From NCBI GenBank assembly GCA_965202685.1, contig OZ241853.1, positions 2,585,622 to 2,649,621 of the forward strand: a stretch of DNA of 64,000 bases. Direction: 5' to 3'. This DNA is from Gammaproteobacteria bacterium (GTDB taxonomy: Bacteria > Pseudomonadota > Gammaproteobacteria > Eutrophobiales > Eutrophobiaceae). A program made the translations under genes and the position numbers. Position 1 is the stretch's first letter, and each line of letters begins with the position of its first letter. This document shows, in pieces, positions 4,221-64,000 of the stretch. Under the pieces are notes generated by a model. That model searched no databases, was not told where the DNA came from, and saw nothing but the letters and a program-made list of their open reading frames with translations.

Positions 4221-4332
4221 CCTTACACTAATCATCTCGCGACTCATTCGCGGCGGGCTGATGAGGAAAGCCGCAGGCCCGCGTCCTGTTGAGGTCATGT
4301 CTTTTTGAGGGGGCAGCCCTAAGAATCCATGC

Positions 4333-4365
4333 GTCCCGGCTGAGATCCGGCCCGGGGCTTTTTTT
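4333..4365 (+). terminator. rho-independent terminator after metZ
   Basis: Stem gucccgg / ccggggc (7 bp, one G·U), 12-nt loop, then a run of 7 T (4359-4365). Confidence 0.55.
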
Positions 4366-4433
4366 GCTTTCCGATGCGAGCGTTTCAGGGATGGCGCCAT
4401 TCGGATTTTTTTGAAGTGATAGAGGAGATCGAC

Positions 4434-5612: not shown

Positions 5613-5617
5613 GGGGC

Positions 5618-6571: not shown

Positions 6572-6585
6572 GAGGGCCAGCTGTC

Positions 6586-7758: not shown

Positions 7759-7789
7759 CAACGACCGCATTCACCGAGGACAACGAACA

Positions 7790-8695: not shown

Positions 8696-9663
8696 GCAAA
8701 CCCAAAATCATAGTCAGCCGCAGGTGGCCTGAGGCCGTTGAAGCGAAGCTCAAAACCCTTTTTGATGTTCAGTTGAACGAGACGGACGCCCCCATGAGCG
8801 CCGGGCAGATGCGCGCGGCGTTGCAGACCGCCGACGCCTTCTGTCCCACCGTCTCCGACGATGTGAACGCGCAGATACTGGGGGTTGAAAACCTTAAGGC
8901 CGGGATCATCGGCAGCTACGGCGTCGGGTTCAATCACATCGACCTCGAGGCCGCCAAGGCTCGGGGGCTGGTGGTGACCAACACGCCTGATGTGCTAACC
9001 GATTGCACGGCGGACCTGGCTATGACCCTGTTGTTGACGGTGGCCCGGCGCGTCGGAGAAGGGGAGCGGCAGTTGCGCGGCAAGGCCTGGTCCGGCTGGC
9101 GCCCCACTCACATGATGGGCGCGAAAGTGACGGGCAAGACCCTGGGCCTGGTGGGCATGGGCCGGATCGCCCGGGCGATGGCCCGCCGGGCCTACCACGG
9201 TTTTGGCATGAAGATCCTCTTCACCGACCCCTATCCGCCGCCGGAGGACCTGGTGAAGTCCCTGCGGGCCGAGGCCCGGGACTCCATAGAGGAGGTGTTG
9301 CGAGAGGCGGACTTTGTTTCCCTGCATTGCCCGGGCGGCAAGGAGAACTACCATTTGCTGAACCGGGAGCGTCTGGCGCTGATGGGCCCTCAGGCCTTTC
9401 TCATCAACAGCGCGCGGGGCGACGTGGTTGATCAGGAGGCCCTGATGGAGGCCCTGCGAAACGGCGCCATCGCCGGCGCCGGCCTGGATGTGTACGAGGG
9501 GGAGCCAGCGGTGCCTGAGGCCTTGCTGTCCATGGAGAATGTCGTGTTGTTGCCGCACCTGGGGAGCGCCTCCAAGGAGACCCGGGTGGCCATGGGTTTG
9601 CGGGTGGTGGAGAATCTGGAGGCCTTTTTCGCCGGCCAGCCTCCCCGCGACCGCGTGGCGTGA
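8692..9663 (+). CDS. hprA: hydroxypyruvate reductase / glycerate dehydrogenase (D-isomer-specific 2-hydroxyacid dehydrogenase)
   Basis: 323 aa. NAD-binding motif GLVGMGRIARAMARRA and catalytic region …LPHLGSAS…. ATGA start/stop overlap with mtkB (8692-8695) and with ppc (9660-9663). Confidence 0.75.
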   Translation: MSKPKIIVSRRWPEAVEAKLKTLFDVQLNETDAPMSAGQMRAALQTADAFCPTVSDDVNAQILGVENLKAGIIGSYGVGFNHIDLEAAKARGLVVTNTPDVLTDCTADLAMTLLLTVARRVGEGERQLRGKAWSGWRPTHMMGAKVTGKTLGLVGMGRIARAMARRAYHGFGMKILFTDPYPPPEDLVKSLRAEARDSIEEVLREADFVSLHCPGGKENYHLLNRERLALMGPQAFLINSARGDVVDQEALMEALRNGAIAGAGLDVYEGEPAVPEALLSMENVVLLPHLGSASKETRVAMGLRVVENLEAFFAGQPPRDRVA

Positions 9664-12553: not shown

Positions 12554-12650
12554 TGCAACCGCTTTGCCCCGTCCGTCTGTTGGCGCGGGGTTGGCGTGGC
12601 AAGTTGTTGATGCTTTTTTCATCTTGATTTTTTTGACCAGACCCGGGGCA

Positions 12651-13820
12651 ATGGGAAAGTTGCAAGAGTGCAAGGAAATGACTGAAATAGAAACGCTGGA
12701 GACAGTGGATTGGGACTTTGCGGATGCTTTGACGGGCACCTCGACAAACACAATACATCCCTATCCAGCTAAATTCATCCCGCAGATTCCAAATCGTTTC
12801 ATAAGGCGGTTTTCAAATGAGGGGGAAACGGTGTATGAACCGTTTTTGGGCAGTGGCACGACTGCTGTAGAGGCCAACATACTCGGAAGAAATTCCATTG
12901 GCAACGACGTGAATGAGCTGGCGGTGCTTATTTCCAAAGTCAAAACAACTCCTATTGCGAACAGAAAACTCGCCTCTCTTGACGGCTTGCTGAATAAAAT
13001 CTACAACCGGATAGATCAGTTGCATTCCAGCAGGGAAGATAAAATTGCAAGACCCAACATCGTCAACCTTGATCGATGGTTTGAAGATTTTGTGATCAAA
13101 GAGCTGGCGCTCACCAAAGAAGAAATTATGAAACTTGGCGACCAGGATCTGATTGATTTTTGCCTTGTGGCGTTTTCGGGGATCATCATTGCCGTTTCGA
13201 GACAAGACAGCGACACCCGATATGTGCGAGTTCCCAAGAACATCAAGCCATTGGATACTTTCGACAAGTTTTCAAAACAGTTGCGCAAATTGAGAAAAAT
13301 TATGCGGGAGTCGAGAGAGCTGATTAGCAAGGGCAAATCTGTCTTTAAAGTCGCCGACACGAGAATGGAAGATGTTTTTGCTGAAGACTCGGCTGATTTG
13401 GCTGTTACATCCCCTCCTTACCCTAATGCTTATGATTACCACCTGTATCATAAATACCGTCTCTTTTGGTTGGGAATGGATCCAGCGCGTTTGCGGCAAA
13501 GTGAAATTGGGGCGCATGCTGACTACTCAAAGAAAAACGGGGCGGATGAATTTGACTTTTTGAAGGACATGAAAAAGTGTTTTTTGAACACGAGCAAAAT
13601 CCTCAAGCCTGGCGCTTGTTTTGCTCTTGTCATTGGCGATTCAATTTTGAAAGGCAGGAACATTCGGAATAACGAAGTTCTGAAGCAAGCCGCTCAGATG
13701 ACGCCTTTCAGTTATGTTGCGGAGTTCACAAGGAATCTGAAGTTAAACAAGAAATCATTTAACCCGAAGATCGGCAATATAAAGACGGAAAAGATTGTGG
13801 TTTTTGAGAATCGGAAATGA
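12651..13820 (+). CDS. DNA amino-methyltransferase (SPPY motif; probable N4-cytosine or N6-adenine), family paralog A
   Basis: Motif order is HPYPAKFIPQ (motif-X-like), then SNEGETVYEPFLGSGTTAVEA (motif I), about 190 aa, then VTSPPYPNAYDY (motif IV). The start could be ATG 12651 or ATG 12678; the ORF-track start at 12564 is unlikely. Confidence 0.7.
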   Translation: MGKLQECKEMTEIETLETVDWDFADALTGTSTNTIHPYPAKFIPQIPNRFIRRFSNEGETVYEPFLGSGTTAVEANILGRNSIGNDVNELAVLISKVKTTPIANRKLASLDGLLNKIYNRIDQLHSSREDKIARPNIVNLDRWFEDFVIKELALTKEEIMKLGDQDLIDFCLVAFSGIIIAVSRQDSDTRYVRVPKNIKPLDTFDKFSKQLRKLRKIMRESRELISKGKSVFKVADTRMEDVFAEDSADLAVTSPPYPNAYDYHLYHKYRLFWLGMDPARLRQSEIGAHADYSKKNGADEFDFLKDMKKCFLNTSKILKPGACFALVIGDSILKGRNIRNNEVLKQAAQMTPFSYVAEFTRNLKLNKKSFNPKIGNIKTEKIVVFENRK

Positions 13821-13823
13821 GCC

Positions 13824-15395
13824 ATGTATAGGTACCTGGCCAATTTTTCAAGATACAAGCTTCGGGATTACGAGAAGCAACTTGCGATAGGGGAATTCGA
13901 GAATCAATTTCCTTCCGTGAAGGAAAAATCAGTCACCGACCAGGGAATATCATTTACGACAAGCCGGCGTCTTAACGCCTCCAAACTTGAAAAGTTGGCT
14001 TTTTACAGCGAGATTCGTTTTCAAAATATGAGATCGGAACAATCAAGCATCCTGACAGACCAGGCGATTATCGAGAGTTTCCAAAAGTCTTCTCCTGATT
14101 TGTTTGAGTCCATTCATCCTGCTAAATCCCGGGAAATTCGCTATTTGACGCATTCGTTTCACGAGTATAAAGGCAGGTTTTATCCGCAACTTGCGAAAGC
14201 GTTTATGAATTACGCCGGTCTCAAAAGAGGCGACACTATTTTAGATCCGTTCTGCGGTAGCGGAACGACATTAGTTGAAAGCTTGCTGTTTGGCGCAAAC
14301 GCCATCGGCATTGACATAAACCCAATAGCTTATCTTTTGGCCAAGGCAAAGGTGCAAAGCCTTTTATTGAAAGAAAAAGAGCTGGGGGTTGTTCGAGAAA
14401 CTTTTGCAGACTCCAAGTTCGGTTCAGACTGGAAAAAGATTCGATTAGAGAGTTGCGACAGCGCTTTGGATGTGGAATACTTGAAAAACTGGTTTCCTGA
14501 AAAAAACCTGAAAAAAATCATTTTCATTCAACAGACCATAGGGCGTTTGCCGAATGAAACAACCCGACTCTTTGCAAAAGTGATTCTTAGCAACCTGTTG
14601 CGAAAGTTTTCCTATCAAGAGCCAAATCAGCTGAGAATGAGAAGGCGGCTGGATGCGCCGCCGCAGAATCTGATTGAAACATTTAAGAAAAATCTTGTTG
14701 ATCAGATTGAAAACCTGGAAAAATTTCGTTTGTTAAATCGTTTTGATCTTACTTCCCAAGTTGAGAATCATTTAGGTGATGTCAGAACATTGATGAAAAG
14801 CGCCGGGCTGAGAAGTCGCTCGGTTGATGCCGTCATTACTTCGCCGCCTTATGCGACCGCGTTGCCTTATGTCGATACTGACAGGCTTTCATTGTTTGTT
14901 TTCGGCTTCACCAGGAAGGGCAATTTCCGGGAATTGGAACGAACCTTAATTGGCAATCGCGAGATTGCCAAGTCAGAGAGGGTGCAACTGGATAAAGAAC
15001 TTGAGAGCAACTTCGCCCAGTCTGTCTTGCCTAAAAAAATCACTCGGCTACTGAGAAAAATTTACCTGCTCAATAAAAATTCAGATGTCGGCTTCAGGCG
15101 CAAGAACACGGCGGCATTGCTCTACAAGTACTTTTCGGACATGCAACTGAGCCTCAACCAGGTTTCCAAGATCCTGAAGCAAAACAAACTGGCTTTTTTT
15201 GTCGTGGGCAACAACAGAACCACAGCAGGCGGCGAAAATGTCCACATTCCGACGGGCGATTTTATCAGCTTGATTGCGCAAGAAAATGGTTTAAGGCTTG
15301 TTGAGAAAATCAACATGACCGTTCAACAGCCTTATATGATTCATTCTAAAAATTCCATTAGTAAGGAATCCATTTTGGTCTTGCAGAGGAAATGA
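13824..15395 (+). CDS. DNA amino-methyltransferase (SPPY motif), family paralog B
   Basis: HEYKGRFYPQL …ILDPFCGSGTTLVESLLFGANAIGIDIN… VITSPPYATALPY. Same architecture as the upstream gene. Start lies 4 bp after the stop of paralog A. Confidence 0.7.
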   Translation: MYRYLANFSRYKLRDYEKQLAIGEFENQFPSVKEKSVTDQGISFTTSRRLNASKLEKLAFYSEIRFQNMRSEQSSILTDQAIIESFQKSSPDLFESIHPAKSREIRYLTHSFHEYKGRFYPQLAKAFMNYAGLKRGDTILDPFCGSGTTLVESLLFGANAIGIDINPIAYLLAKAKVQSLLLKEKELGVVRETFADSKFGSDWKKIRLESCDSALDVEYLKNWFPEKNLKKIIFIQQTIGRLPNETTRLFAKVILSNLLRKFSYQEPNQLRMRRRLDAPPQNLIETFKKNLVDQIENLEKFRLLNRFDLTSQVENHLGDVRTLMKSAGLRSRSVDAVITSPPYATALPYVDTDRLSLFVFGFTRKGNFRELERTLIGNREIAKSERVQLDKELESNFAQSVLPKKITRLLRKIYLLNKNSDVGFRRKNTAALLYKYFSDMQLSLNQVSKILKQNKLAFFVVGNNRTTAGGENVHIPTGDFISLIAQENGLRLVEKINMTVQQPYMIHSKNSISKESILVLQRK

Positions 15396-15396
15396 C

Positions 15397-16488
15397 ATGA
15401 AACTCACACTTTTGACGCATGAAAATCCGGTAGGCGAAGAAATCGCTAAGGCTCTGAAAAACGGAAGGTATTCCAATTTCAAAGCGGCTGTCGCTTATGT
15501 GCGAAATTCGGGCCTAAGCAGGATCCACAGCGAACTGGCTGATTTTGCCGGGAACGGAGGCAAAGCATCCATAATCGCAGGCATAGATCAAGGCAATACT
15601 TCATATCAGGCTTTAGTCAATCTGAAAACTTTTGCCAAGGACAACTTGTTTATCCACCACGATAGAAATTTTGATATTACATTCCATCCCAAGATTTACC
15701 TGTTTGGCAACAGCCAGGTTGAAAAGGTGATACTGGGATCGTCCAATTTTACCGCTGGTGGTTTTTATTTGAATTACGAAGCAAATATCAGCGTTAAGCT
15801 TGGAAGTTCGGAAAAAGCAAAACGCTTTCGCCGGCAGATTTCGGATTATTGGAGCGATTTGCTGAATGACAAGAATACGAAAAGGTGCGCTCCGGCATTG
15901 CTCAACAAACTTTTGGAAAACGGTTCCATAGCCGATGAGCGCGCGCAAAAACCGTTCAAGGAAATCATTGAGAAAATGTCAACCGGTTCCCCTTTCAAAG
16001 CCAGGGAATTAAGGACAGCGCCGCCTGCTGTGGAGTTGCGAACGGAAGTTCCAGCGTTAAGAGGGAAATTTGCAATGACGCTTTCGAGCTTTGATGTAAG
16101 CGAGAGGAGCCTGGACCCTGTTCTGCTGATCCCTATTGCCGCGTTGAGGACGAGGCCGGGATTCTGGAATTTCCCTGCCTTTTACACTTATTCGGAAACA
16201 GGCTATCCTCAGCTGTATGCGGTTGCAGAAGTCCGGATGGATGGCAAGGCGCTGAAAGATCAACATATCCGGATGTATTACTACGAGAAAAAAAGCGAGT
16301 TCCGTTTGAAGTGCGAAGCCATTAAGCGGGCCGGTGATGAAGGGGACATCATTGTAATTAGAAAGTATCCCACCAGGCCCTTGGAGTTTGAAATTGAGCT
16401 TTTAAGGCGGAATTCCATAGAACATGAAGAGATTAGACCTCTTCTTGCTCAGAGAGCAAGTTCGCGGAAATTTTTCGCTTATTTGTGA
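15397..16488 (+). CDS. phospholipase-D-family nuclease with a single HKD motif; candidate BfiI/NgoFVII-type restriction endonuclease
   Basis: Single HxK…GSxN motif (HPKIYLFGNSQVEKVILGSSNFT) in the N-terminal half. C-terminal half of about 170 aa is plausibly a DNA-recognition domain. 363 aa, close to BfiI (358 aa) and similar to Nuc. Starts 2 bp after the stop of methyltransferase B. Confidence 0.6.
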   Translation: MKLTLLTHENPVGEEIAKALKNGRYSNFKAAVAYVRNSGLSRIHSELADFAGNGGKASIIAGIDQGNTSYQALVNLKTFAKDNLFIHHDRNFDITFHPKIYLFGNSQVEKVILGSSNFTAGGFYLNYEANISVKLGSSEKAKRFRRQISDYWSDLLNDKNTKRCAPALLNKLLENGSIADERAQKPFKEIIEKMSTGSPFKARELRTAPPAVELRTEVPALRGKFAMTLSSFDVSERSLDPVLLIPIAALRTRPGFWNFPAFYTYSETGYPQLYAVAEVRMDGKALKDQHIRMYYYEKKSEFRLKCEAIKRAGDEGDIIVIRKYPTRPLEFEIELLRRNSIEHEEIRPLLAQRASSRKFFAYL

Positions 16489-23790: not shown

Positions 23791-24571
23791 CCCCGTCCGA
23801 GTCGGGCGCCGGGCGCGCCAGGGCCTGGTTCCCTCCTGAGAGTTTGGCTTGGTACAAGGCGGCGTCCGCTTGCGCGATCAAGACCCTTGGCGCCAGGGTT
23901 CGGGGCGGCGCCATGGCGGCGACGCCTACGCTCGCGGTGACGATGCCTTTTGCGCCAGCGGCCTCGTGCCGGATGGCTAATTGCTCTATGGCTCGCCGCA
24001 TCCGGTCCGCCAGCTGGAGCGCGTTCCTCAGGTTCGTGTCCGGCAGGATGAGCGCGAACTCATCGCCTCCGTAGCGCGCCGCCAGGTCGCCCCCGCGTTT
24101 CGCGTGGTCGTCGATCACTCGGGCGACGCGGCGCAGGCAGTCGTCTCCCTGCTGGTGTCCGTAGCGGTCGTTGAAGGGTTTGAAGCCGTCTATGTCGCAC
24201 AGGATCAGGGCGACGGCGCCGCCGGCCCGGGCCGAGCGCCGCCATTCCTTATCCAAAAACTCGTCGAAGCGGCGGCGGTTCGCGATCTCCGTCAGGCTGT
24301 CTTGCGTCGACAAGGCCAAGAGTTTCGCCGCCAGGCCCTGGGCCTCGTCTTTTTCCCGCTGCAGTCTTTCCTGGGTTTTTTTGGCCGCGGCAAGTTCGCG
24401 CTCCAGCTCCGCCACCCGCCGGTCCCGCCGCCACCAGCGCCTCAGTTTTCCCAGGAGTCCGCTTGGGTCAAGACGCCCTCTTTGCGGCGGTCCCTCGGGT
24501 CGGCTCAAGGGATCTCCTCGCAAGGGAAAAATTTGTCTTCCGGGATGTAGGACAGCAAGGCGTCCCGGCAA
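23759..24571 (-). CDS. diguanylate cyclase (GGDEF domain) with an N-terminal coiled coil
   Basis: RYGGDEFALIL active-site motif. N-terminal ELERELAAAKKTQERLQREKDEAQ coiled coil. Start codon uncertain: the ORF overlaps the SplB-like gene's 3' end by 67 bp and glnE's 3' end by 32 bp. Confidence 0.7.
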   Translation of the reverse strand: MPGRLAVLHPGRQIFPLRGDPLSRPEGPPQRGRLDPSGLLGKLRRWWRRDRRVAELERELAAAKKTQERLQREKDEAQGLAAKLLALSTQDSLTEIANRRRFDEFLDKEWRRSARAGGAVALILCDIDGFKPFNDRYGHQQGDDCLRRVARVIDDHAKRGGDLAARYGGDEFALILPDTNLRNALQLADRMRRAIEQLAIRHEAAGAKGIVTASVGVAAMAPPRTLAPRVLIAQADAALYQAKLSGGNQALARPAPDSDGVSPPPAAGAG

Positions 24572-25506
24572 AAAGACAGCAACTCATCGCGCAAAGGCTT
24601 CCGGTAGGTCATCACTCCCTTGTCGGTCTCCTCCAGGGGGGAAGCGAACAGCGCCTCTTCCGGGTGTAGCCGCGACAGGGGTTTGTAATAGGGCTTGGGC
24701 AGACGGAAGCTTCCCAGACTCACCGAGTGCAGCGTTGCGGCGTCGATGCGCGCGAACACCTGGGCGAACAGGGCCTGGTATTGCGAGCGCGCCCCTTCTT
24801 GATGGATGAGCGGGTCGAAACGCAAGCCCACCGGCCAGCCGCGGGCCTGAAGTCGTTGCAGAGCCGCTATCCGCTTAGCGACCGGGGGCGCCTTGCGCTC
24901 CAGGGCCGAGGCGATTTCGGCGGGCGTGAAACTATAGGCGACGACGCAGTTCGGCAACGGCTCGCGCGCCAACAGGGAACGGATTTGCGCGCTCTTGGTG
25001 CGCAACTCCAACAGGGCGCGGGGGCGCCCCTCGAACACCGGCAGAAACTCCCGGACGAAGTGGGTCACCGGCTCCAAGGCCAGGCTGTCGCAGTCATACC
25101 CGGAAAAGAAATGCGCGGTCTGCCGCCCCGCCGCCTTGATCTTCTCCTCGATGGCGGCGATGAAATCCTCGTAATTGACGAAAACCACATAGTGCGCCGA
25201 CCGGTGCATGCCTTGCAGGAAGCAATAACGGCAGTCGTAGAGGCAATTCAACATGTGGGAGAAATAATAGTTTCGCTCGCCCCCGATGGCGTATTCCGGC
25301 GGGGAAGGAAGCAGGTGGTTTTTAAATTTTCGCGCCAAAATCAACGCCGGTTTGCGCTTCTGCAAACGGAAATTTTGCGCCTTGCGGTTGAATATCTCGG
25401 TGTAGCGGTCGCATTCGGCGACGGCGGCGGCAGGGAAACGCTCCCTGATGGCCCGGGCCCGGGGGTGGTCCGCCACAGCCGCTTCAAGGTAAATCTGCTC
25501 GATCAT
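24505..25506 (-). CDS. radical-SAM protein of the spore-photoproduct-lyase (SplB-like) family
   Basis: CLYDCRYC (CX3CX2C) radical-SAM cluster motif. About 334 aa when started at MIEQIY (25506). The ORF-track start at 25914 overlaps the upstream gene and is unlikely. Confidence 0.65.
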   Translation of the reverse strand: MIEQIYLEAAVADHPRARAIRERFPAAAVAECDRYTEIFNRKAQNFRLQKRKPALILARKFKNHLLPSPPEYAIGGERNYYFSHMLNCLYDCRYCFLQGMHRSAHYVVFVNYEDFIAAIEEKIKAAGRQTAHFFSGYDCDSLALEPVTHFVREFLPVFEGRPRALLELRTKSAQIRSLLAREPLPNCVVAYSFTPAEIASALERKAPPVAKRIAALQRLQARGWPVGLRFDPLIHQEGARSQYQALFAQVFARIDAATLHSVSLGSFRLPKPYYKPLSRLHPEEALFASPLEETDKGVMTYRKPLRDELLSFCRDALLSYIPEDKFFPCEEIP

Positions 25507-26348
25507 GCCGGCTCTTGAGGGGTCAGGCGGATGGGCGCGTTCTCGACCTCGACGCGCAACCGTTCTATGATTTGGGCGGCGTTGGCGGGGCCGGTTGCTC
25601 CTTGGATCAAAAGTTCGGCGGCCCCCCGTCCTCCCGGACGCAACGCCTGCCATTTCCTGAGTAGCGTTTTCAGTTGCTCGCGCTGGGTGGCGGTGAAGCG
25701 CCGCCCCCGCACCAGCGCCTCGTAATCGTCGCCGGGATGAAGGCGTCGCCGCTCCTCCTCGGCAAGCGACAGCAGTTGCCGCGCCAGCGCGTCTATGACG
25801 GCGAGATTGTCTTCCAGCAAGCGGCTGACGCGGGTCGAGGTGAGATCCTCCGGCGGGTGTTCGGCGTTGTCCGAGACCACCTTGACCGTCTGCGCCAGCT
25901 CTGTGGTCGCGCAACCCGAGACGGCGCTGAAAAACCCCGCGCCTTCCATATCAAACAAGACCTCCTGGTGGTCCGCGCAAGGCTCCTCTATGGTAAGCAG
26001 TTCGCAGACAGGAAGGGCCGCGCTGAAGACGGGGGAGGGAAACCAGGTCTGCCCGGAGGCGGCGTCCGTGATCTTTGCGACTAAAGCGGCCTGGCCCAGA
26101 GGCAGGGAGGCGTGTCCCGCCACCCCTATGTTGAGCCAGGCGTGGGATTTGTCCGCTTTGAACAAGGCGCGGGTCAACTCCGTCGCGGCCGCGGCGGCGG
26201 CTTTGCCCGGCCCGGAACGGGTGAGCGTGATGTCCCCGTTCCGATTTTGATAGACGGGAAAGGCTCTGCTCCCCGGCAGTGGCCGCAGGTCGAAATGCTC
26301 CAACAGGGGTCGGGCCTCGGGCTTGAGGGCGGTGATGAGGTGAATCAT
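25503..26348 (-). CDS. PNP/UDP-phosphorylase-family protein (MTA/SAH-nucleosidase-like) with a C-terminal extension
   Basis: MIHLITALKPEARPL…, GPGKAAAAAAT…, FDMEGAGFF and VVSDNAE resemble the Pfs/MtnN motif positions. Extra C-terminal segment of about 80 aa. ATGA overlaps with both neighbours. Confidence 0.45.
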   Translation of the reverse strand: MIHLITALKPEARPLLEHFDLRPLPGSRAFPVYQNRNGDITLTRSGPGKAAAAAATELTRALFKADKSHAWLNIGVAGHASLPLGQAALVAKITDAASGQTWFPSPVFSAALPVCELLTIEEPCADHQEVLFDMEGAGFFSAVSGCATTELAQTVKVVSDNAEHPPEDLTSTRVSRLLEDNLAVIDALARQLLSLAEEERRRLHPGDDYEALVRGRRFTATQREQLKTLLRKWQALRPGGRGAAELLIQGATGPANAAQIIERLRVEVENAPIRLTPQEPA

Positions 26349-27187
26349 GACAGGGCGCGCCGGGCCAACACCCGTTCACACTCGTCCACGAAGACCGGGT
26401 TGCCGTGTTTTTTCGCGCCGCGCAAGTAGATGCGAGCTTTTTCAACCAACATGGCCAGGGCCGCTTGGCGGTCGGGCGCCGCTAAGGCCTCGTCGTTGAG
26501 GATCTTGTCCAGGGCCCTGATGCGAAACCGGTCCATGCCCCAGTGCCTTTTTGACAGCTGGTCCTCGTGGCCGCCGTATTTCACGACCAAGGGCTCATCG
26601 ATGAATGACACGGGCATGCGCGCGCAGATCCGCAACCATAGATCGTAGTCTTCGCAGACCGGCAGGGTCTCATCGAACAGGCCCACTTGGGCAAAGACGC
26701 GCCGGTGGAGCATCACGGATGACGGGGAAATGACGCATAGAGGCAGGCAACGCTGGAATATGAACCCGCCGCGTTTTTTGTGCTTGCGTTTCTGATTGAC
26801 GCGGACGCCATTGCGGATCCACACCTCGTTGGTGTGGAGCGCCTGCTGTTCTGGATCTTTTTCAATTGCTTGGCATTGTCGCTCCAGCTTGGCGGGAAGC
26901 CAGGCGTCGTCCGAGTCCAAAAACGCCAGCCAGTCGCCGCGGGCCGCGCGCACCCCGGCGTTCCGGGCGGCGCTGACCCCCCGGTTGGGTTGGGCCATCA
27001 GCCTGATGTCGGGGTAGCGCTCCGCGACTAACGCGGCGGTGCCATCGGTGGAGCCGTCATCGACGACGATGATCTCATCCGGGGGCCGGGTCTGCGCCAG
27101 GACCGAGTCCAGACAACGCGGCAAAAGACGGGCCCGATTATGGCTGGGAATGATGACGCTGAGGGATTTCATGGGATTGATTAACAA
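26345..27187 (-). CDS. family-2 glycosyltransferase
   Basis: LSVIIPSHNRARLLPRCLDSVLAQT…IIVVDDGSTDGT, the classic GT2 N-terminal DxD-containing domain. 280 aa. Confidence 0.75.
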   Translation of the reverse strand: MLINPMKSLSVIIPSHNRARLLPRCLDSVLAQTRPPDEIIVVDDGSTDGTAALVAERYPDIRLMAQPNRGVSAARNAGVRAARGDWLAFLDSDDAWLPAKLERQCQAIEKDPEQQALHTNEVWIRNGVRVNQKRKHKKRGGFIFQRCLPLCVISPSSVMLHRRVFAQVGLFDETLPVCEDYDLWLRICARMPVSFIDEPLVVKYGGHEDQLSKRHWGMDRFRIRALDKILNDEALAAPDRQAALAMLVEKARIYLRGAKKHGNPVFVDECERVLARRALS

Positions 27188-27204
27188 TGCGGAACTAACG
27201 CTTT

Positions 27205-27999
27205 TTAGCCACTCTTCTTTCTCTCAATAACGCTTCTTATCCTCTTTTTAGCGAAGGTTGCGTACTTCTTGTCTTTCTCAATGCCTAACCACTTTCTGTT
27301 TAATGTTTCGGCAACGACGGCGGTTGTTCCGCTTCCTAAAAATGGATCAAGAACAATGTCGCCTTCGTTTGAACTTGTCAAAATAATTCTTTTGAGTATT
27401 TCTTCTGGTTTTTGCGTGGGGTGCAATGCGCGTCCACTTTTGTTGCGCAGTCTCTCTTTTCCTTGAACAAGTGGCAATTCCCAAAGATCGCGCATTTGTT
27501 TTGGACTCCCATCCTTCTTTCTATGGGGATTTATTTCTTTTGTTTTTTCATAATTGAAAATCCAGCCGCTTCCTTTTACCGCCCAAACAACAAACTCAGT
27601 TGAGTGTGTATAAACTCGTTTTGTCATATTAGGCATTGCGTTTGTTTTATACCAAGTGATAACATTGTTAATTTTGAAACTGAACTGTTTTAATGTTACC
27701 AGCACTTCGCCGATGTTGTGATAGCTGCATGAAATGTAAATTGCTCCACCATTTTTCAACACCCTGAAGCAAGAGCCGATCCATTCTTTTGTAAATTCCA
27801 TGTATTCTGAGGAGGTCATTTTATCCCAGGCCTCGTCTATCATGTGCCAGTCGCCTCCAGTTTTATTTCCCTCCCATTTTAAGTGATTTCCGGACAGATT
27901 GTAGGGCGGATCAGCAAAAATCAAAGCAACAGTTTCTTCATCGAACTGTTTGTTCAGTATTGAAATGCAGTCACCATTGTAAATAACATTTGTTTTCAT
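27205..27999 (-). CDS. beta-class DNA N6-adenine (or N4-cytosine) methyltransferase
   Basis: Motif order is DPPY (ALIFADPPYNL), then HPTQKP, then DPFLGSGTTAV, the beta-class permutation. Start taken at MKTNVIYNGDC (27999). Confidence 0.8.
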   Translation of the reverse strand: MKTNVIYNGDCISILNKQFDEETVALIFADPPYNLSGNHLKWEGNKTGGDWHMIDEAWDKMTSSEYMEFTKEWIGSCFRVLKNGGAIYISCSYHNIGEVLVTLKQFSFKINNVITWYKTNAMPNMTKRVYTHSTEFVVWAVKGSGWIFNYEKTKEINPHRKKDGSPKQMRDLWELPLVQGKERLRNKSGRALHPTQKPEEILKRIILTSSNEGDIVLDPFLGSGTTAVVAETLNRKWLGIEKDKKYATFAKKRIRSVIERKKSG

Positions 28000-28007
28000 G
28001 TTTATAC

Positions 28008-29825
28008 TCAGGAAAGGATGCTTTCCCGCCATGAAGAAATAGTTTCCGGAATGCTTTGCAGCCATTCAATGGAGTTGTTGAAAGAATTGGTGGCATTCAA
28101 TATTTTGTCGTACAAAAGCGAGAGTTGCGTGTGTCTTAAGAACCGCAGTTCTGCTTTCATCTGAAGAAGAGTTTCCAAAATCAATATGAAATGGCTAATT
28201 GATAACGGGATGATTTTCTGAGGACTCCCCTCAAATTCGTATTTTATCGCCGCCCAAAAAGTGTTTACGGTATCCCTGTGCAGTGATGGGGCAATGAATA
28301 GACAATATGATGGCTTGCTGGGATGCTTTTTTTCAAAATCTCTTAAATGCCTCATCACTGGTTGTCCTTCGTTGTACCACTGCTCGCGGTTTCTGAGCAT
28401 TGTAACTTCGCAAATTGCATTGAAGCTATCATAAAAGCACTCAATATCTGGAGTGTTTGCAGGAGCGGTGAAAGTTGGTTCATTATCATCGCCGACAGGA
28501 TAACTGGGTTGTATTCTAAGCGCATCGTTAAGCGCTTGCAAACTCAGTGCAGACAATTTTTCAAGCAATATAGAACGGTCATCATGCTCAAAGATAGTTT
28601 TAAGCTTATGAATGCAGTTTTCAATTTGCTCTTTTGTTTGGGAACTCTCGTAATCCAGATCATTTTGTAGCGACCTCCTGTATTCTCGCAATTCAGCGAT
28701 ATAGATTCTTAACTCGTCATTTTGCATTTTTCGGTAGTTTTCCAGGGCAATGTTCTCTTTCCTCAAAGAAGCTTCATGTTCGCGCACTTCTTGAACAAGC
28801 CGTTCTATAATTTCAATGTGCTTTTCTGAGGTTTCCCAAGGAAGATAAGGCTGGGAAATGTCTGACACATATTCAAGATAAGCTTTTTTTGAGACAAAGG
28901 ATTTAGCTTTTGCACTGTCATAAGCTAATAGAGCATTGATTTCAATTGACCTGCTTGGTTCTAAATCAATATAAAAGCCACCGCCACGGATGCGTATATA
29001 TCGAGTCAAGCGAAAATAACGAATTGCGTTATCGCCGTAGTCTTGCAAATTGTTCAGGAGGCTGCTTATCTTGTTTTTGTCATTAGATTCTAAAAACCCA
29101 ATGGCAAATTGCCATTTGTAATTTTCAAAGCATTCCCTTCGTTCCTTCTGTGGCTTGCTTATTAGTTCTTCTCTTAAAGCGATAATTCTCTCCGCATAAT
29201 CATTTATGTTTTTATGATGAATCAAAGTGGGAACGAAAAGGGAAAATTCCTGTTTGCTAATGCCTTTAGGTTTGTTGCCGCGAGAAATGTCTTTTTGATT
29301 CACCTTATTGATCAGATGAAGTGCGCCAATGAAGGGCTTAATATCGTAATTTCCGTCTTCAGGATAATCACGGCTATCGGGGTTTGGTATTTGCCATTTC
29401 AAGAAACTTCTGAAAAACACTTCTCCAATATCAAAGTCATCTTTCATAAAAAGCTTCCCTAGGTCAGTGATGAATATCCTATTGTTTTTGATAGCGACGA
29501 GCCCTATTTTTTTGAGGGGGTTTATTGACTGTCTTCCGCGCATTGGCGGATCTTCATAATTTTTGATGTTGAAAATCTCTTCCGCTTGAGCAAAAGATAT
29601 TTCTCTTGATAGATCATCAATCAAGCTAACTGATTCTCGGGGAAGCCCATTATAGAACTGGGGACTTCCATATCCATATTTTCTATTTTGGATAAGTAAA
29701 GTTTGAAAAGCTTTTTGGCTTTCTGAATTCCATTCCGAATTTTCGAGTTGACGAAGGATTATCAAAAAATCCCTCAGCCTTTCAGGATTTCGCAACGTTG
29801 TGGTGATTGACCAAGGTTTTTTCAT
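28008..29825 (-). CDS. candidate type IIS restriction (or nicking) endonuclease, AlwI/N.BstNBI/PleI/MlyI-like family
   Basis: 605 aa. Recalled segments of N.BstNBI line up: FLKWQIPNP…YPE…IKPF…LHLINKV, IRYFRLTRYIR.RG, and YCLFIAPSL…IIPLSISHF. N-terminal W…RNPERL…L…E..W pattern. Flanked by two methyltransferases. Identification is from memory, not from alignment. Confidence 0.5.
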   Translation of the reverse strand: MKKPWSITTTLRNPERLRDFLIILRQLENSEWNSESQKAFQTLLIQNRKYGYGSPQFYNGLPRESVSLIDDLSREISFAQAEEIFNIKNYEDPPMRGRQSINPLKKIGLVAIKNNRIFITDLGKLFMKDDFDIGEVFFRSFLKWQIPNPDSRDYPEDGNYDIKPFIGALHLINKVNQKDISRGNKPKGISKQEFSLFVPTLIHHKNINDYAERIIALREELISKPQKERRECFENYKWQFAIGFLESNDKNKISSLLNNLQDYGDNAIRYFRLTRYIRIRGGGFYIDLEPSRSIEINALLAYDSAKAKSFVSKKAYLEYVSDISQPYLPWETSEKHIEIIERLVQEVREHEASLRKENIALENYRKMQNDELRIYIAELREYRRSLQNDLDYESSQTKEQIENCIHKLKTIFEHDDRSILLEKLSALSLQALNDALRIQPSYPVGDDNEPTFTAPANTPDIECFYDSFNAICEVTMLRNREQWYNEGQPVMRHLRDFEKKHPSKPSYCLFIAPSLHRDTVNTFWAAIKYEFEGSPQKIIPLSISHFILILETLLQMKAELRFLRHTQLSLLYDKILNATNSFNNSIEWLQSIPETISSWRESILS

Positions 29826-30976
29826 GGCCGTTCAACATGGCAATAGAAAATCCGTTCCGCATTGCTCTCGCTGGCGCTTTTTCCTGTTGTAAAGGCCTTG
29901 TAATTTTTTTCAAATATCTCAACGTTGCCTCTGCCACTCAGAATTCGCACGATTTCGTTATCGCTTATTCTTGCGTTTGAGCGCCCGTCTTTTGAATTGC
30001 CTGTGTTGTTGTAAGAAAGTAAAATATGCCTGCATTGCGCGTTTCCAATCAAGTCTGAAAGCGCGCGTTTTGCGCTTTTGAGACAATAATTGCTTTTTAT
30101 ATGCGAGCGGTTCATTTTTTTGCCTACGCCGACTACTTCGGGTTTTTTCCATTCTGCGACATTTTCCAGAAGATGATACGCATCTGAGTACTGGCGCGAG
30201 TTGTAGGGCGGGTCAATGTATAGAACATCACAAGAGATTCTTTTGATTAGCGCGTTTGCGTCTTCTTTGTGGATTTCATTGTTTTCGTTATTCGCGTAGT
30301 CAATAGCGGGAATTAAAAGCCGGACAGGTTGGATCGTGTCTAATTTCCTCCGAAAAGCATCGTAATGGCCAACGGTATTGGCAACCTTGTCCGTTGCGTA
30401 AAGCAAGGAACAAATCAGGATGTTCTTTTCATCTTCGCCATTTGCAATTTCGTTAATCTCCTCGCGCATTGCCCCGATCTTTTTTGCATTCGCTTCTGTG
30501 AAATAGGTCCCGCCAAAGTGTTCTGAGAAATAATTTTCTTGACTGCTCTCCAAAGCATTGAGATAGCCGATTTTTTGAATTAAGCTTTTTTGCAGGTCGC
30601 GACGAACCCCTAAAAAGGCTTTCAGGCAGGCGTAATTCGCAAAAAGCAAATCATTGGAGATGATTTTAATGGCTTGGTTGTTAAACCTTTCTCCGACAAC
30701 GCCAGTTCCAGCAAAGATGTCGCAAAAGGAATTTATGGGGCCGCACTTTTCTGACACCACATCCTCGATGAAACCTAGCAATTTGCGCTTGTTGCCCAGG
30801 TACCGTCTGTTATGGAGGCGAAAGCGCCCACTACTTAGGCATTCTTGTGGCGGGAAGCGATGCCCGTTGATTCTCTGCGCGCTGATTTCAGGCCCGGATT
30901 CTTCTCCGTATAAATCGAGCTGAGTCGTATGCAGGTTGTTTTCCACGCGGTCAGAGTTTTGGTTCTGTTCTGTCAT
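29822..30976 (-). CDS. D12-class (Dam-like, alpha) DNA N6-adenine methyltransferase
   Basis: RYLGNKRKLL (the Dam WAGGK-type motif), FCDIFAGTGVVG (motif I), VLYIDPPYN (motif IV), and HILLSYNN (the Dam SNSD-type motif). Stop overlaps the endonuclease start. Confidence 0.75.
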   Translation of the reverse strand: MTEQNQNSDRVENNLHTTQLDLYGEESGPEISAQRINGHRFPPQECLSSGRFRLHNRRYLGNKRKLLGFIEDVVSEKCGPINSFCDIFAGTGVVGERFNNQAIKIISNDLLFANYACLKAFLGVRRDLQKSLIQKIGYLNALESSQENYFSEHFGGTYFTEANAKKIGAMREEINEIANGEDEKNILICSLLYATDKVANTVGHYDAFRRKLDTIQPVRLLIPAIDYANNENNEIHKEDANALIKRISCDVLYIDPPYNSRQYSDAYHLLENVAEWKKPEVVGVGKKMNRSHIKSNYCLKSAKRALSDLIGNAQCRHILLSYNNTGNSKDGRSNARISDNEIVRILSGRGNVEIFEKNYKAFTTGKSASESNAERIFYCHVERP

Positions 30977-31045
30977 TTTCCCGTTGGTCTTTGTTCCACT
31001 GCCCAGAAGTTAATGATACTACAAAATGCGCGTGTTACATACCCT

Positions 31046-31352
31046 TCCGGCGGCCCGGCGGCGGTTGAGGCGGACCTGGCGGGAGGTGGAGAGTGAGGCT
31101 GGAGAACCGGGCTCGCAACGCAGGGCAGGTCCGGCGGCGGTTGAGGCGGACCTGGCGGGAGGCGGGGAGTGAGGCTGGAGAACCGGGCTCGCAGCGCAGA
31201 GCAGGTCCGGCGGCGGTTGAGGCGGACCTAGCAGGAGGCGGGGAGTGAGGCTGGAGAACCGGTGCCCGCGGCGCGGGGCGGGCCCGACGGCAGTTGAGGC
31301 GGCCCGGCGGGAGATGGGGCGTGAGGCTGGAGAACCGGGCCCGCGGCGCGGG
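31046..31352. repeat. tandem direct repeat, about 76 bp x 4 (GC-rich, each unit with an internal hairpin)
   Basis: GTTGAGG anchors recur at 31064, 31140, 31216 and 31293 (period 76, 76, 77). Units 2 and 3 contain the inverted repeat caggtccg…cggacctg. Units differ by a few substitutions and the fourth is more diverged. Confidence 0.8.
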
Positions 31353-31562
31353 GCAACCCCGGCGACGGGCGCACCGGTGGCGGCGGGGTAGTCGGGCCGG
31401 AAAAATAACACAGGCCCCCCGATTTTTCTCACTTTTGCCCAATATGTTGTAAAATAGACCATGGTAAACGCCGTTGGTTGTGGTTTCCCGCGCCCGGAAG
31501 CGGGGGGAGGCCCCCGAAATCTCGAATCGTTGCTCCCGGCTGAATTTTTGAGTGAAAAACCC

Positions 31563-31590
31563 TTGACAAGGGGATTTTAGCGCGTAATAA
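31563..31590 (+). promoter_or_regulatory. candidate promoter of the tRNA-tuf operon (TTGACA-16 nt-TAATAA)
   Basis: Consensus -35 TTGACA (31563-31568) and AT-rich -10 TAATAAT (31585-31591), about 20 nt upstream of tRNA-Tyr. Confidence 0.45.
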
Positions 31591-31608
31591 TGGCCTGCTT
31601 ACCCACTC

Positions 31609-31693
31609 GGAGGGGTACCCAAGCGGTCAACGGGGGCAGACTGTAAATCTGCTGGCAATGCCTTCGTAGGTTCGAATCCTACCCCCTCCACCA
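31609..31693 (+). tRNA. tRNA-Tyr (anticodon GUA)
   Basis: 85 nt with a long variable arm. Acceptor stem GGAGGGG / CCCCUCC, discriminator A, CCA. Anticodon loop cuGUAaa. Close to E. coli tRNA-Tyr. Confidence 0.9.
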
Positions 31694-31745
31694 TGGCGCG
31701 GGGGCGGAATGCGGCGGCGCGGGGCAGGTGGCGAAATGCGAGGCG

Positions 31746-31819
31746 GCGGGTGTAGTTCAATGGTAGAATCTCAGCCTTCCAAGCTGATGGCGTGGGTTCG
31801 ATTCCCATCACCCGCTCCA
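31746..31819 (+). tRNA. tRNA-Gly (anticodon UCC)
   Basis: 74 nt. Acceptor stem GCGGGUG / CACCCGC, TΨC arm GGTTCGATTCC, anticodon loop cuUCCaa, 3' CCA. Confidence 0.85.
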
Positions 31820-31854
31820 GATGGCGGGCCGGGCCGCCGGGAGTGATGACCAGC

Positions 31855-31930
31855 GCCCATATAGCTCAGTCGGTAGAGCGCTTTCTTGGTAAGGAAGAGG
31901 TCACCGGTTCAAATCCGGTTATGGGCTCCA
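31855..31930 (+). tRNA. tRNA-Thr (anticodon GGU)
   Basis: 76 nt. Acceptor stem GCCCAUA / UAUGGGC. Anticodon stem cuuuc / ggaag with loop uuGGUaa. 3' CCA. Confidence 0.85.
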
Positions 31931-61577: not shown

Positions 61578-61647
61578 GGCCCTGTTGGTGCCTAAGCGCG
61601 TCTTGGAGACAGCGAGGAGCAATTAAAGCAGTTGGATTGCGTTTGGT

Positions 61648-62394: not shown

Positions 62395-62407
62395 TTAAGC
62401 TATGCCG

Positions 62408-63988: not shown

Positions 63989-64000
63989 GCTCTGCTGGAC

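What the first reader, a model, noticed from the sequence alone, without database searches (positions are those of the whole stretch)
27200..30990. Second foreign island: D12 methyltransferase, 605-aa AlwI/N.BstNBI/PleI-like endonuclease and beta-class methyltransferase as one translationally coupled operon
All three genes are AT-rich and co-directional. They show an ATGA stop/start overlap (29822-29825) and an 8-bp gap (28000-28007). The central 605-aa protein matches from memory several blocks of the nicking enzyme N.BstNBI and its relatives PleI and MlyI (LKWQ.P…YPE, YCLFIAP…IIPLS, RYFR.T). That family cuts or nicks next to asymmetric sites (GAGTC, GGATC) and needs two methyltransferase activities, consistent with the flanking D12 and beta-class enzymes. 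Whether this enzyme is a full endonuclease or a natural nicking enzyme cannot be read from the sequence and would be interesting in a methanotroph. The operon is co-directional with the downstream GT2 / PNP-like / SplB-like genes, so read-through into host genes is possible.
Basis: partly seen in the sequence, partly recalled or inferred. Interest (0 to 1): 0.65.

Follow-up and report, generated by a model that had tools for sequence, protein, structure and literature searches.

The report
Type IIS restriction-modification island, AlwI family
This is an ordinary but uncharacterised bacterial defence cassette: a DNA-cutting enzyme of the AlwI/N.BstNBI family flanked by two protective DNA methylases. 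It was acquired from a low-GC donor and sits directly in front of the first codon of a host operon.

Summary
Three co-directional minus-strand genes sit in a 38-44% GC block within a 60-65% GC genome: M1 (D12/alpha m6A methylase, 384 aa), R (605 aa) and M2 (beta-class methylase, 264 aa). The ATGA overlap and the 8-nt gap are as described. R is a full-length AlwI-family enzyme (PF09491, E 2.8e-81). Its AlphaFold model matches Nt.BspD6I end to end (TM 0.70-0.74), and all five catalytic-centre residues are invariant in 121 homologues.

Closely related genomes with an empty site show the insertion is 4,224 bp (27173-31396). It includes a 4 x 76-bp GC-rich repeat and lies 0-2 bp upstream of the host GT2 start codon. 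The M1-R-M2 cassette recurs as a unit in Patescibacteria and other phyla. In this host lineage it is under purifying selection (dN/dS 0.07-0.20).

No BspD6I-type small subunit exists in the window or in any related locus held (L001-L017). A homodimerising double-strand cutter is therefore more likely than a nickase, but this is not proven. The recognition site is unknown. R is only about 22-25% identical to the relatives compared (BspD6I and unnamed AlwI-family plasmid genes). M2 is 44% identical to CcrM but differs at key base-contact residues.

Verdict: a new member of a known kind, of modest interest.

The parts
29822..30976 (-). M1: D12/alpha-class N6-adenine DNA methyltransferase, 384 aa, first gene of the cassette. 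Motif I (FAGTG, aa 88) comes before motif IV (DPPY, aa 255).
   Evidence: PF02086 at E 1.3e-33. Motif order. It is 25% identical (E 8e-15) to the C-terminal D12 half of the fused methylase next to an AlwI-family enzyme on an A. lwoffii plasmid. It is 62-73% identical to the gene in the same position in L001-L005. dN/dS is 0.20 against L011.
28008..29825 (-). R: AlwI-family Type IIS-like restriction endonuclease, 605 aa. It has an N-terminal recognition region and a C-terminal PD-(D/E)XK cleavage domain (E422, D460, E473-V-T, E486, H493).
   Evidence: PF09491 at E 2.8e-81. N.BspD6I large subunit at E 4e-33; the small subunit matches aa 436-593 at 3.9e-8. AlphaFold model with pLDDT 88 matches 6qnz/2ewf at TM 0.70-0.74, E 6e-27. 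Catalytic-centre residues are invariant in 121 sequences. D456 and E418 of BspD6I are known to be essential (PMC6261011). dN/dS is 0.14.
27205..27999 (-). M2: beta-class N6-adenine DNA methyltransferase, 264 aa. DPPY (aa 30) comes before FLGSG (aa 220). CcrM-like catalytic domain without the CcrM C-terminal domain.
   Evidence: PF01555 at 2e-59. NCBIfam CcrM model at 2.7e-73, below its cutoff. CcrM structure 6PBD at E 3.5e-56, 44% identity. Start codon supported by 107 of 116 homologues. dN/dS is 0.07.
27173..31396 (.). The whole inserted block (4,224 bp) relative to the empty site found in closely related genomes.
   Evidence: L014-L017 are 97-98.6% identical to the flanks. They join window 31397 to window 27172 with only TT in between.
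31055..31355 (.). 4 x 76-bp GC-rich tandem repeat inside the insertion, upstream of M1. On the M1-sense strand it is C-rich and poorly structured. Origin and role unknown.
   Evidence: TRF: period 76, 4.0 copies, 89% matches. Absent from empty-site loci and from cassette loci in other phyla. RNA fold z-score is +2.6 against shuffles. A diverged array is present in L011.
30977..31054 (-). AT-richer leader directly upstream of the M1 ATG, between the repeat array and M1.
   Evidence: Sequence read. No consensus sigma-70 site was found here.
27173..27204 (-). 32-nt spacer between the M2 stop codon and the host GT2 ATG. It is the right-hand end of the insertion and contains no terminator-like hairpin.
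   Evidence: Junction alignment. Terminator scan.
31397..31454 (-). Host segment that directly precedes the GT2 ATG in empty-site genomes. It is now separated from GT2 by the island and faces the repeat array and M1.
   Evidence: Alignment A2. The idea that it holds the GT2 promoter (GTGTTATTTT, an extended -10-like element 7 nt before the ATG in the empty site) is inference only.
26345..27172 (-). Host GT2 glycosyltransferase, first gene of the GT2 / PNP_UDP-like / SPL-like / GGDEF operon. Its ATG (27172) abuts the insertion.
   Evidence: PF00535 at 3.6e-39. Gene order is conserved with and without the island.

Best explanation
A horizontally acquired, functional Type IIS-like restriction-modification cassette.

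**Shown**
- The three gene families, an intact nuclease centre, full-length fold similarity to Nt.BspD6I, cassette conservation across phyla, purifying selection, and the insertion boundaries.

**Inferred mechanism**
- M1 (alpha/D12 class) and M2 (beta class) each put N6-methyl on the adenine of one strand of an asymmetric recognition sequence.
- R binds unmethylated copies of that sequence through its N-terminal domain. Its single C-terminal PD-(D/E)XK centre cuts a few bases to one side.
- No small catalytic subunit gene accompanies R anywhere. The second strand is therefore most likely cut after transient homodimerisation of cleavage domains, as in AlwI, MlyI and FokI (Class I of PMC3017599).
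- Gene order M1-R-M2, with a 4-nt overlap and an 8-nt gap, couples translation so that methylase is made with or before nuclease.

**Insertion and spread**
- The block was inserted without integrase or target duplication 0-2 bp upstream of the host GT2 ATG.
- GT2-operon transcripts must therefore start in, or pass through, the island.
- The block then spread, or was lost, among related populations. Homologous recombination through the conserved flanks is the likeliest route.
For: **Gene identities and nuclease integrity**
- Family HMMs and matches to solved structures.
- The AlphaFold model (pLDDT 88, pTM 0.81) matches Nt.BspD6I over its full length.
- E422, D460, E473, E486 and H493 correspond to BspD6I E418, D456, E469, E482 and H489. 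They are 100% conserved in 121 sequences. D456A and E418A inactivate BspD6I (PMC6261011).

**Cassette conservation**
- M1-R-M2 in the same order recurs in Parcubacteria, Patescibacteria, an uncultured-bacterium MAG (L003) and Poriferihabitaceae MAGs. A Peribacteria contig (L004) holds R-M2 at its end. R is 58-67% identical and M2 70-74%.
- Planctomycetia relatives keep M1 and R but use a second D12 methylase instead of M2. Two methylases thus look like a requirement of the clade.

**No small subunit**
- No paralogue of the R C-terminal domain was found in the window or in L001-L017, searched at tblastn E < 1.

**Selection**
- dN/dS against the sister lineage is 0.20 (M1), 0.14 (R) and 0.07 (M2). 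Host neighbours give 0.10-0.39.

**Foreign origin and insertion**
- The GC step and the empty site in L014-L017.
- No terminator-like site between M2 and GT2.

**Literature**
- AlwI has two strand-specific methylase domains, and Class I enzymes dimerise to cut both strands (PMC4081073, PMC3526280, PMC3017599).
Against: - No biochemical or methylome data exist for this clade, so the recognition site and cut positions are unknown.
- The closest solved relative is a nickase subunit. Nothing in the sequence proves that R can homodimerise.
- M2's nearest characterised relative, CcrM, methylates both strands of a symmetric GANTC site. If M2 did the same, M1 would be redundant.
- The host DNA in the window shows no avoidance of GAGTC (66 observed, 78.5 expected) or GGATC (126 observed, 140.5 expected). 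That is uninformative rather than supportive.
- One gene caller started R at a different codon and called 585 aa, and the 605-aa product is not in the protein collection as an exact sequence. Even so, homologues cover all 605 residues.
Confidence: 0.8

Rival explanations
1. R is a natural stand-alone nicking endonuclease, comparable to the isolated large subunit Nt.BstNBI/Nt.BspD6I. It cuts only one strand next to its site, and the cassette restricts by nicking.
For: The only solved relative, and the best structural match, is the nickase subunit Nt.BspD6I. R is almost the same length (605 vs 604 aa) and has the same domain layout. No small subunit gene is present. The top-strand site of BstNBI is active without a partner (PMC4081073).
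Against: Identity to BspD6I is only about 22%. In BspD6I/BstNBI the nickase is part of a heterodimeric double-strand cutter whose partner gene lies adjacent (PMC3017599). In this clade no partner was found in the window or in any of the related loci held. Yet the cassette is widespread, highly conserved and under purifying selection, which fits an effective double-strand restriction enzyme better. The homodimerising members AlwI and MlyI belong to the same Pfam family.
Confidence: 0.17
2. The system is a GAGTC (PleI/MlyI/BstNBI-type) isoschizomer. M2 is a GANTC/GASTC methylase that protects both strands, and M1 is an accessory or independent methylase.
For: M2 is 44% identical to the CcrM catalytic domain, about the level seen among CcrM orthologues. 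It keeps Y93, H94, I110, M122, P123, K118, E135, R179, T191 and K193. According to a review, GAGTC enzymes pair with one GASTC methylase (PMC4081073).
Against: CcrM residues that read the bases are changed: R44 to K, P45 to W, R129 to V. G39 and F63 are lost, and loop 2B carries a 4-aa insertion. These altered loops are nearly invariant in 116 M2 homologues, which indicates a fixed but different specificity. M1 is never missing from the cassette (L001-L003 and L005-L007; the L004 contig ends within R), is under purifying selection, and is homologous to one half of AlwI-type fused methylases. The N-terminal region of R aligns poorly with BspD6I; aa 1-95 are essentially unaligned.
Confidence: 0.2
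3. The nuclease is inactive or decaying, and the block persists as a pair of orphan methylases.
For: In one related locus (L005) R is broken by three IS insertions while M1 and M2 stay intact. Window versus L009 shows 15 non-synonymous and 7 synonymous changes in R. A gene caller picked a shorter 585-aa start.
Against: In the window R is a full 605-codon ORF. All catalytic-centre residues are intact and it aligns end to end with homologues. dN/dS is 0.12-0.14 over the deeper comparisons, with 100-122 synonymous changes.
Confidence: 0.05

Closest known systems
R.BspD6I / BstNBI (GAGTC 4/6): large subunit Nt.BspD6I/Nt.BstNBI plus the 186-aa small subunit
   Same: Same Pfam family (PF09491), same length class (604 vs 605 aa) and the same overall fold (TM 0.70-0.74). 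The catalytic-centre residues E418/D456/E469/E482/H489 all have counterparts. The R C-terminal domain also resembles the small subunit.
   Different: Only about 22% identity, and the N-terminal 95 aa do not align. No adjacent or nearby small-subunit gene was found in the window or in L001-L017. Recognition of GAGTC cannot be assumed.
AlwI / EacI / GmeI-type systems (GGATC 4/5) with a fused two-domain methylase
   Same: An AlwI-family nuclease plus two strand-specific m6A methylase activities (PMC4081073, PMC3526280). M1 is homologous (25% identity, E 8e-15) to the C-terminal D12 half of the fused methylase next to an AlwI-family gene on an A. lwoffii plasmid. There is no small subunit, and these enzymes act as homodimerising Class I enzymes (PMC3017599).
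   Different: Here the two methylases are separate genes flanking R, and one of them is beta class (CcrM-like) rather than a second D12 domain. R is only about 23% identical to the A. lwoffii plasmid enzyme. The specificity is unknown.
MlyI / PleI (GAGTC), homodimerising Type IIS enzymes with a single GASTC methylase
   Same: Same nuclease family. The likely mode of action is the same: a monomer binds the site and dimerises transiently to cut the second strand (PMC3017599).
   Different: Those systems carry one methylase that acts on both strands (PMC4081073). This one carries two of different classes.
CcrM / M.HinfI-type beta-class GANTC methylases (for M2)
   Same: 44% identity over the catalytic domain. 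The DPPY pocket and many loop-3C, loop-45 and loop-6E residues are kept.
   Different: M2 lacks the CcrM C-terminal DNA-binding domain. The base-reading residues R44, P45 and R129 and the G39-G40 segment are altered. It is part of a restriction cassette, not an orphan cell-cycle methylase.

Membership tests
AlwI restriction endonuclease family (Pfam PF09491) | Full-length match to the family HMM above the gathering score | tested here: met
   274.2 bits against a cutoff of 23.1, E 2.8e-81, profile positions 2-440 of 441.
AlwI restriction endonuclease family (Pfam PF09491) | C-terminal PD-(D/E)XK-type centre as in Nt.BspD6I (E418, D456, E469, E482, H489) | tested here: met
   The counterparts E422, D460, E473, E486 and H493 are present and invariant in 121 sequences. 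D456 and E418 are essential in BspD6I (PMC6261011).
AlwI restriction endonuclease family (Pfam PF09491) | Nt.BspD6I-like overall fold: recognition domain, linker and cleavage domain | tested here: met
   AlphaFold model (pLDDT 88) against 6qnz/2ewf: E 6e-27, TM 0.70-0.74 over about 640 aligned columns.
AlwI restriction endonuclease family (Pfam PF09491) | Sequence-specific cleavage at a fixed distance outside an asymmetric site (Type IIS behaviour) | not testable with these tools
   Needs enzyme assays or methylome data.
BspD6I/BstNBI-type heterodimeric enzymes (Class III) | A small catalytic subunit gene next to the large-subunit gene | tested here: not met
   tblastn with R aa 431-605 finds only R itself in the window and in L001-L017. 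The insertion is filled by M1, R, M2 and the repeat array.
GAGTC group (MlyI/PleI/BstNBI) | One companion methylase that acts on both strands (GASTC) | tested here: not met
   Two methylases of different classes are conserved with R. The single-methylase rule is taken from PMC4081073.
GAGTC group (MlyI/PleI/BstNBI) | Recognition of GAGTC | not testable with these tools
   About 22% identity to BspD6I, with the N-terminus unaligned. Site counts in host DNA are uninformative.
AlwI-type GGATC systems | A fused two-domain (D12-D12) methylase adjacent to R | tested here: not met
   Here there are separate D12 and beta-class genes. Fused 632-640-aa D12-D12 methylases are seen next to AlwI-family genes on A. 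lwoffii and Geobacillus plasmids. M1 is homologous to the C-terminal half only.
D12 / alpha-class m6A DNA methyltransferases (M1) | PF02086 match, with motif I (FxGxG) before motif IV (DPPY) | tested here: met
   E 1.3e-33. FAGTG at aa 88 and DPPY at aa 255. The Dam TIGR00571 model is far below its cutoff, so M1 is not a Dam orthologue.
Beta-class N6/N4 DNA methyltransferases (M2) | PF01555 match, with motif IV (DPPY) before motif I (FxGxG) | tested here: met
   E 2e-59. DPPY at aa 30 and FLGSG at aa 220.
CcrM orthologues (GANTC) (M2) | NCBIfam equivalog score above cutoff, a C-terminal DNA-binding domain, and the base-reading residues R44, P45 and R129 | tested here: not met
   246.9 bits against a cutoff of 830. 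M2 is 264 aa with no C-terminal domain. R44K, P45W and R129V.

The most novel reading that the evidence does not exclude
This 605-aa clade has at least 120 clusters at 60% identity or more, spread across Patescibacteria, Gammaproteobacteria and other phyla. It always travels with an M1-type D12 methylase and a second methylase. It may be an uncharacterised branch of the AlwI family with a recognition sequence not yet among known Type IIS specificities. It might also be a partner-less natural nicking enzyme. Either outcome would give a new reagent. In addition, its insertion between a host operon's upstream region and its start codon may have placed host glycosyltransferase genes under the control of a defence island.
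Probability: 0.3. Interest if true: 0.55.

Novelty: new member of a known kind. Interest (0 to 1): 0.3.

Why it matters
- **Possible reagent.** AlwI-family enzymes are the source of commercial nicking enzymes. A conserved, partner-less clade with unknown specificity is a reasonable candidate for a new Type IIS or nicking reagent.
- **A clean example of R-M mobility.** The locus shows a restriction-modification cassette moving without any mobility gene. Filled and empty alleles coexist among populations 97-99% identical. The same cassette occurs in Patescibacteria. The insertion cuts a host operon off from its former upstream region.
- **Limits.** None of this overturns current understanding. 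It is a well-behaved example of a known kind of system.

Tried and rejected
1. **Site avoidance.** GAGTC/GACTC (66 observed, 78.5 expected) and GGATC/GATCC (126 observed, 140.5 expected) are not depleted in the host part of the window, so specificity cannot be inferred this way.
2. **Specificity from named relatives.** Searches with R and M2 in the 5.8-billion-protein collection returned no biochemically named enzyme. Plasmid and phage searches gave only relatives at 22-25% identity, or a partial hit.
3. **Primary papers.** Those on N.BstNBI/MlyI/PleI, N.AlwI and MlyI dimerisation (PMC55753, PMC60812, PMC1084030) are not held. The dimerisation residues could therefore not be checked.
4. **Small-subunit search.** Nothing was found.
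5. **Origin of the 76-bp repeat.**
   - No copy elsewhere in the window or in related loci.
   - No similarity to the target site.
   - No Rfam family.
   - The conserved 18-mer gave only single chance hits in metagenome contigs.
6. **Integrase-mediated insertion at the nearby tRNA genes.** Rejected. There is no integrase, no target duplication, and the junction lies about 210 bp from tRNA-Tyr, not inside it.
7. **Source genome.** The exact-protein look-up of R found nothing, and the genome-collection scan did not return the source genome. The host context was recovered through the neighbouring PNP-like protein instead.
8. **Promoter for M1.** No convincing sigma-70 promoter was found directly upstream. 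The scan hits inside the AT-rich genes are not interpreted.

Full report
**1. Observation**

Three co-directional minus-strand ORFs fill window 27205-30976:
- M1, 29822-30976, 384 aa
- R, 28008-29825, 605 aa
- M2, 27205-27999, 264 aa from ATG 27999 (the longest ORF would give 286 aa)

On the coding strand the M1 stop and the R start overlap as ATGA. R's TGA is followed by 8 nt and then the M2 ATG. ATG 27999 is the real M2 start. 107 of 116 M2 homologues begin at the equivalent residue, and a 264-aa M2 sequence from a 2.97-Mb NCBI/ENA contig is in the collection. GC falls to 0.37-0.44 across 27250-30750, against 0.59-0.68 on both sides.

**2. What the genes are**

*M1* matches the D12-class methyltransferase model (PF02086, E 1.3e-33). 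FAGTG (aa 88) lies before DPPY (aa 255), which is the alpha-class order. It is not a Dam orthologue: the TIGR00571 score is far below the cutoff, and it has no relative among solved structures at E < 0.001.

*M2* matches PF01555 (E 2e-59). DPPY (aa 30) lies before FLGSG (aa 220), which is the beta-class order. Its best solved relative is the CcrM catalytic domain (6PBD, E 3.5e-56, 44% identity).

*R* matches RE_AlwI over essentially the whole profile (PF09491, E 2.8e-81).
- It matches the large subunit of R.BspD6I (Nt.BspD6I) at E 4e-33.
- Its C-terminal 160 residues also match the BspD6I small subunit at 3.9e-8.
- An AlphaFold2 model built on 38 homologues (pLDDT 88, pTM 0.81) superposes on Nt.BspD6I along its full length (Foldseek E 6e-27, TM 0.70-0.74, 22% identity).
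- BspD6I residues E418, D456, E469, E482 and H489 correspond to R residues E422, D460, E473, E486 and H493. All five are invariant in 121 family members. D456A and E418A are known to abolish BspD6I catalysis (PMC6261011).

**3. The cassette is a unit**

A scan of representative genomes found relatives of R in seven loci.
- Three loci (a Parcubacteria, a Patescibacteria and an uncultured-bacterium MAG) show intact M1-R-M2 in the same order. A Peribacteria contig (L004) starts inside R and holds R-M2 only. Identities are 58-67% for R, 62-69% for M1 and 71-74% for M2.
- In a Poriferihabitaceae MAG (L005) the order is the same (M1 73%, M2 70%). There R is broken by IS3-type and IS256-type transposase insertions, while both methylases remain intact.
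- In two Planctomycetia MAGs, a more distant R (45-47% identity) sits after M1 and a second D12 methylase, in place of the beta-class one.

Two methylases therefore look like a constant requirement of this clade, with the class of the second one interchangeable.

On A. lwoffii and Geobacillus plasmids, AlwI-family genes sit beside a fused D12-D12 methylase. Our M1 is 25% identical (E 8e-15) to its C-terminal half. The literature states two relevant facts:
- M.AlwI-type fused methylases modify GGATC with one domain and GATCC with the other (PMC3526280, PMC4081073).
- GAGTC enzymes such as MlyI need only one GASTC methylase (PMC4081073).

The two-methylase layout here argues for a fully asymmetric site.

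**4. Nickase or endonuclease**

BspD6I/BstNBI cut both strands only with a 186-aa partner encoded next to the large subunit. AlwI, MlyI and FokI dimerise transiently instead (PMC3017599, PMC4081073).

A tblastn search with R aa 431-605 finds nothing but R itself in the window and in L001-L017, even at E < 1. The insertion has no room for another gene. The clade is widespread: 2,600 hits, and the 120 best are all 60% identical or more and about 605 aa long. Recognition and cleavage regions are both highly conserved.

I therefore favour a Class I, homodimerising double-strand cutter at about 0.65. I keep a stand-alone nickase as a live rival at about 0.17. Sequence alone cannot settle this, and the papers that define the MlyI and AlwI dimerisation determinants were not available.

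**5. Specificity**

The recognition site is unknown. R is about equally distant (22-25% identity) from BspD6I and from the plasmid-borne AlwI-family enzymes.

M2 keeps many CcrM residues: Y93, H94, I110, K118, M122, P123, E135, R179, T191 and K193. It differs at the residues that read the bases:
- R44 (which reads G1) is K.
- P45 is W.
- R129 (which reads T4) is V, with an R one position earlier.
- The G39-G40 segment that accommodates the N position is shortened.
- Loop 2B carries a 4-aa insertion.

These altered loops are almost invariant across 116 M2 homologues, so the clade has one fixed specificity that need not be GANTC. Counts of GAGTC and GGATC in the host DNA are near expectation.

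**6. The island and its history**

The neighbouring PNP-like protein led to contigs from the same host and, through its 90% cluster, to contigs from related hosts.
- L008 is identical to the window. L009 and L010 are 99% identical and carry the island.
- L011-L013 are a sister lineage (90-93% nucleotide identity) with the island at the same place.
- L014-L017 are closer relatives (97-98.6% identity in the flanks) and lack it.

Junction alignments show what separates filled from empty sites:
- The empty site reads ...TTATTTTTCCGG-TT-ATGAAATCC.... The ATG is the GT2 start codon.
- The filled site has 4,224 bp (27173-31396) between CCGG and ATG.
- There is no target duplication, no terminal repeat and no mobility gene.

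The insertion holds the three genes plus a 4 x 76-bp GC-rich tandem repeat (31055-31355). That repeat is absent from the empty sites, from the rest of the window and from the cassette loci in other phyla.

Against the sister lineage, the island genes show dS 0.23-0.34 and dN/dS 0.07-0.20. The flanking host genes show dS 0.14-0.21 and dN/dS 0.10-0.39. The cassette has therefore been kept under purifying selection for about as long as these lineages have diverged.

The island is present in the more distant lineage and absent in the nearer one. Without repeats that would allow precise excision, this pattern is best explained by allele exchange through the conserved flanks. That is inference and was not tested.

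**7. Consequence for the host operon**

Only 32 nt separate the M2 stop from the GT2 ATG, and no terminator-like hairpin lies there. The segment that precedes the GT2 ATG in empty-site genomes (window 31397-31454) now faces the repeat array and M1. Transcripts of the GT2 / PNP_UDP-like / SPL-like / GGDEF operon must therefore begin inside the island or cross it.

In the empty site, GTGTTATTTT lies 7 nt before the ATG. That would fit an extended -10 element giving a leaderless mRNA, but this is my reading of the sequence and nothing more.

On the M1-sense strand the repeat array is C-rich and folds worse than shuffled controls (z = +2.6). That is reminiscent of Rho-loading sequences. This too is speculation.

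**8. Comparison and verdict**

This is a bona fide member of the AlwI nuclease family: HMM, catalytic centre and fold were all tested and met. It fails three narrower tests:
- It is not a BspD6I-type heterodimer, because there is no small subunit.
- It does not have the single-methylase layout of the GAGTC group.
- It does not have the fused D12-D12 methylase of AlwI-type systems.

It is best described as an uncharacterised clade of the family, with split alpha-class and beta-class methylases. It most probably works as a Type IIS restriction-modification system.

Novelty: a new member of a known kind. Interest is modest (0.3). The open points are practical ones (recognition site, nick versus cut), plus a tidy example of a mobility-gene-free insertion of a restriction-modification cassette at the head of a host operon.

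Noticed in passing
window 12564-16488: Another AT-rich island (GC about 0.43) encodes two PF01555 methylases (418 and 523 aa) and a PLD-family nuclease-like protein (363 aa). This looks like a second, unrelated restriction-modification cassette. It is absent from L016 and present at least in part in L014 (the locus ends within it), so the two islands vary independently among related populations.
   Followed up: partly
window 61000-64000: A third low-GC stretch (0.46-0.52) holds a 526-aa PF01555 methylase-like ORF on the minus strand (62408-63988).
   Followed up: no
window, host DNA outside 27173-31396: GCAGC/GCTGC (GCWGC) is the most under-represented 5-mer: 51 observed against 141.5 expected from a Markov model. 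This suggests long-term exposure to a GCWGC- or GCAGC-specific system.
   Followed up: no
window 31055-31355: A 4 x 76-bp GC-rich tandem repeat belongs to the insertion but has host-like composition. It is C-rich and poorly structured on the M1-sense strand. A diverged, longer array exists in sister lineage L011. Origin and function are unknown.
   Followed up: yes
window 31455-31530: An indel of about 70-76 bp with two GC-rich hairpins lies between the tRNA-Tyr promoter and the former GT2 upstream segment. It is present in the window lineage (and L009) but in neither the empty-site loci nor L011.
   Followed up: partly
L005 3854-10349: In a Poriferihabitaceae MAG the orthologous nuclease gene is split into three pieces by two IS3-type elements and an IS256/Mutator-type transposase, while both methylase genes remain intact. 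This is a textbook case of nuclease inactivation.
   Followed up: yes
L006 3983-7764 and L007: Planctomycetia relatives of R (45-47% identity) are preceded by M1 and a second D12-class methylase (320 aa) instead of the beta-class M2.
   Followed up: yes
window 24505-27172: The host operon downstream of the island is GT2 glycosyltransferase / weak PNP_UDP-like (281 aa) / spore-photoproduct-lyase-like radical SAM / GGDEF. Adjacent genes overlap by 4 nt in related loci. The function of this conserved set is unknown.
   Followed up: no
window 2988-12413: A run of serine-cycle-type genes: aminotransferases, an HpcH/malyl-CoA-lyase-like gene, a malate-thiokinase-like ATP-grasp/CoA-ligase gene, a 2-hydroxyacid dehydrogenase and PEP carboxylase.
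   Followed up: partly
window 31563-31930: A near-consensus sigma-70 promoter (TTGACA-17-AATAAT) precedes tRNA-Tyr/Gly/Thr-tuf on the plus strand. It lies 166 bp from the island edge and faces away from it.
   Followed up: no
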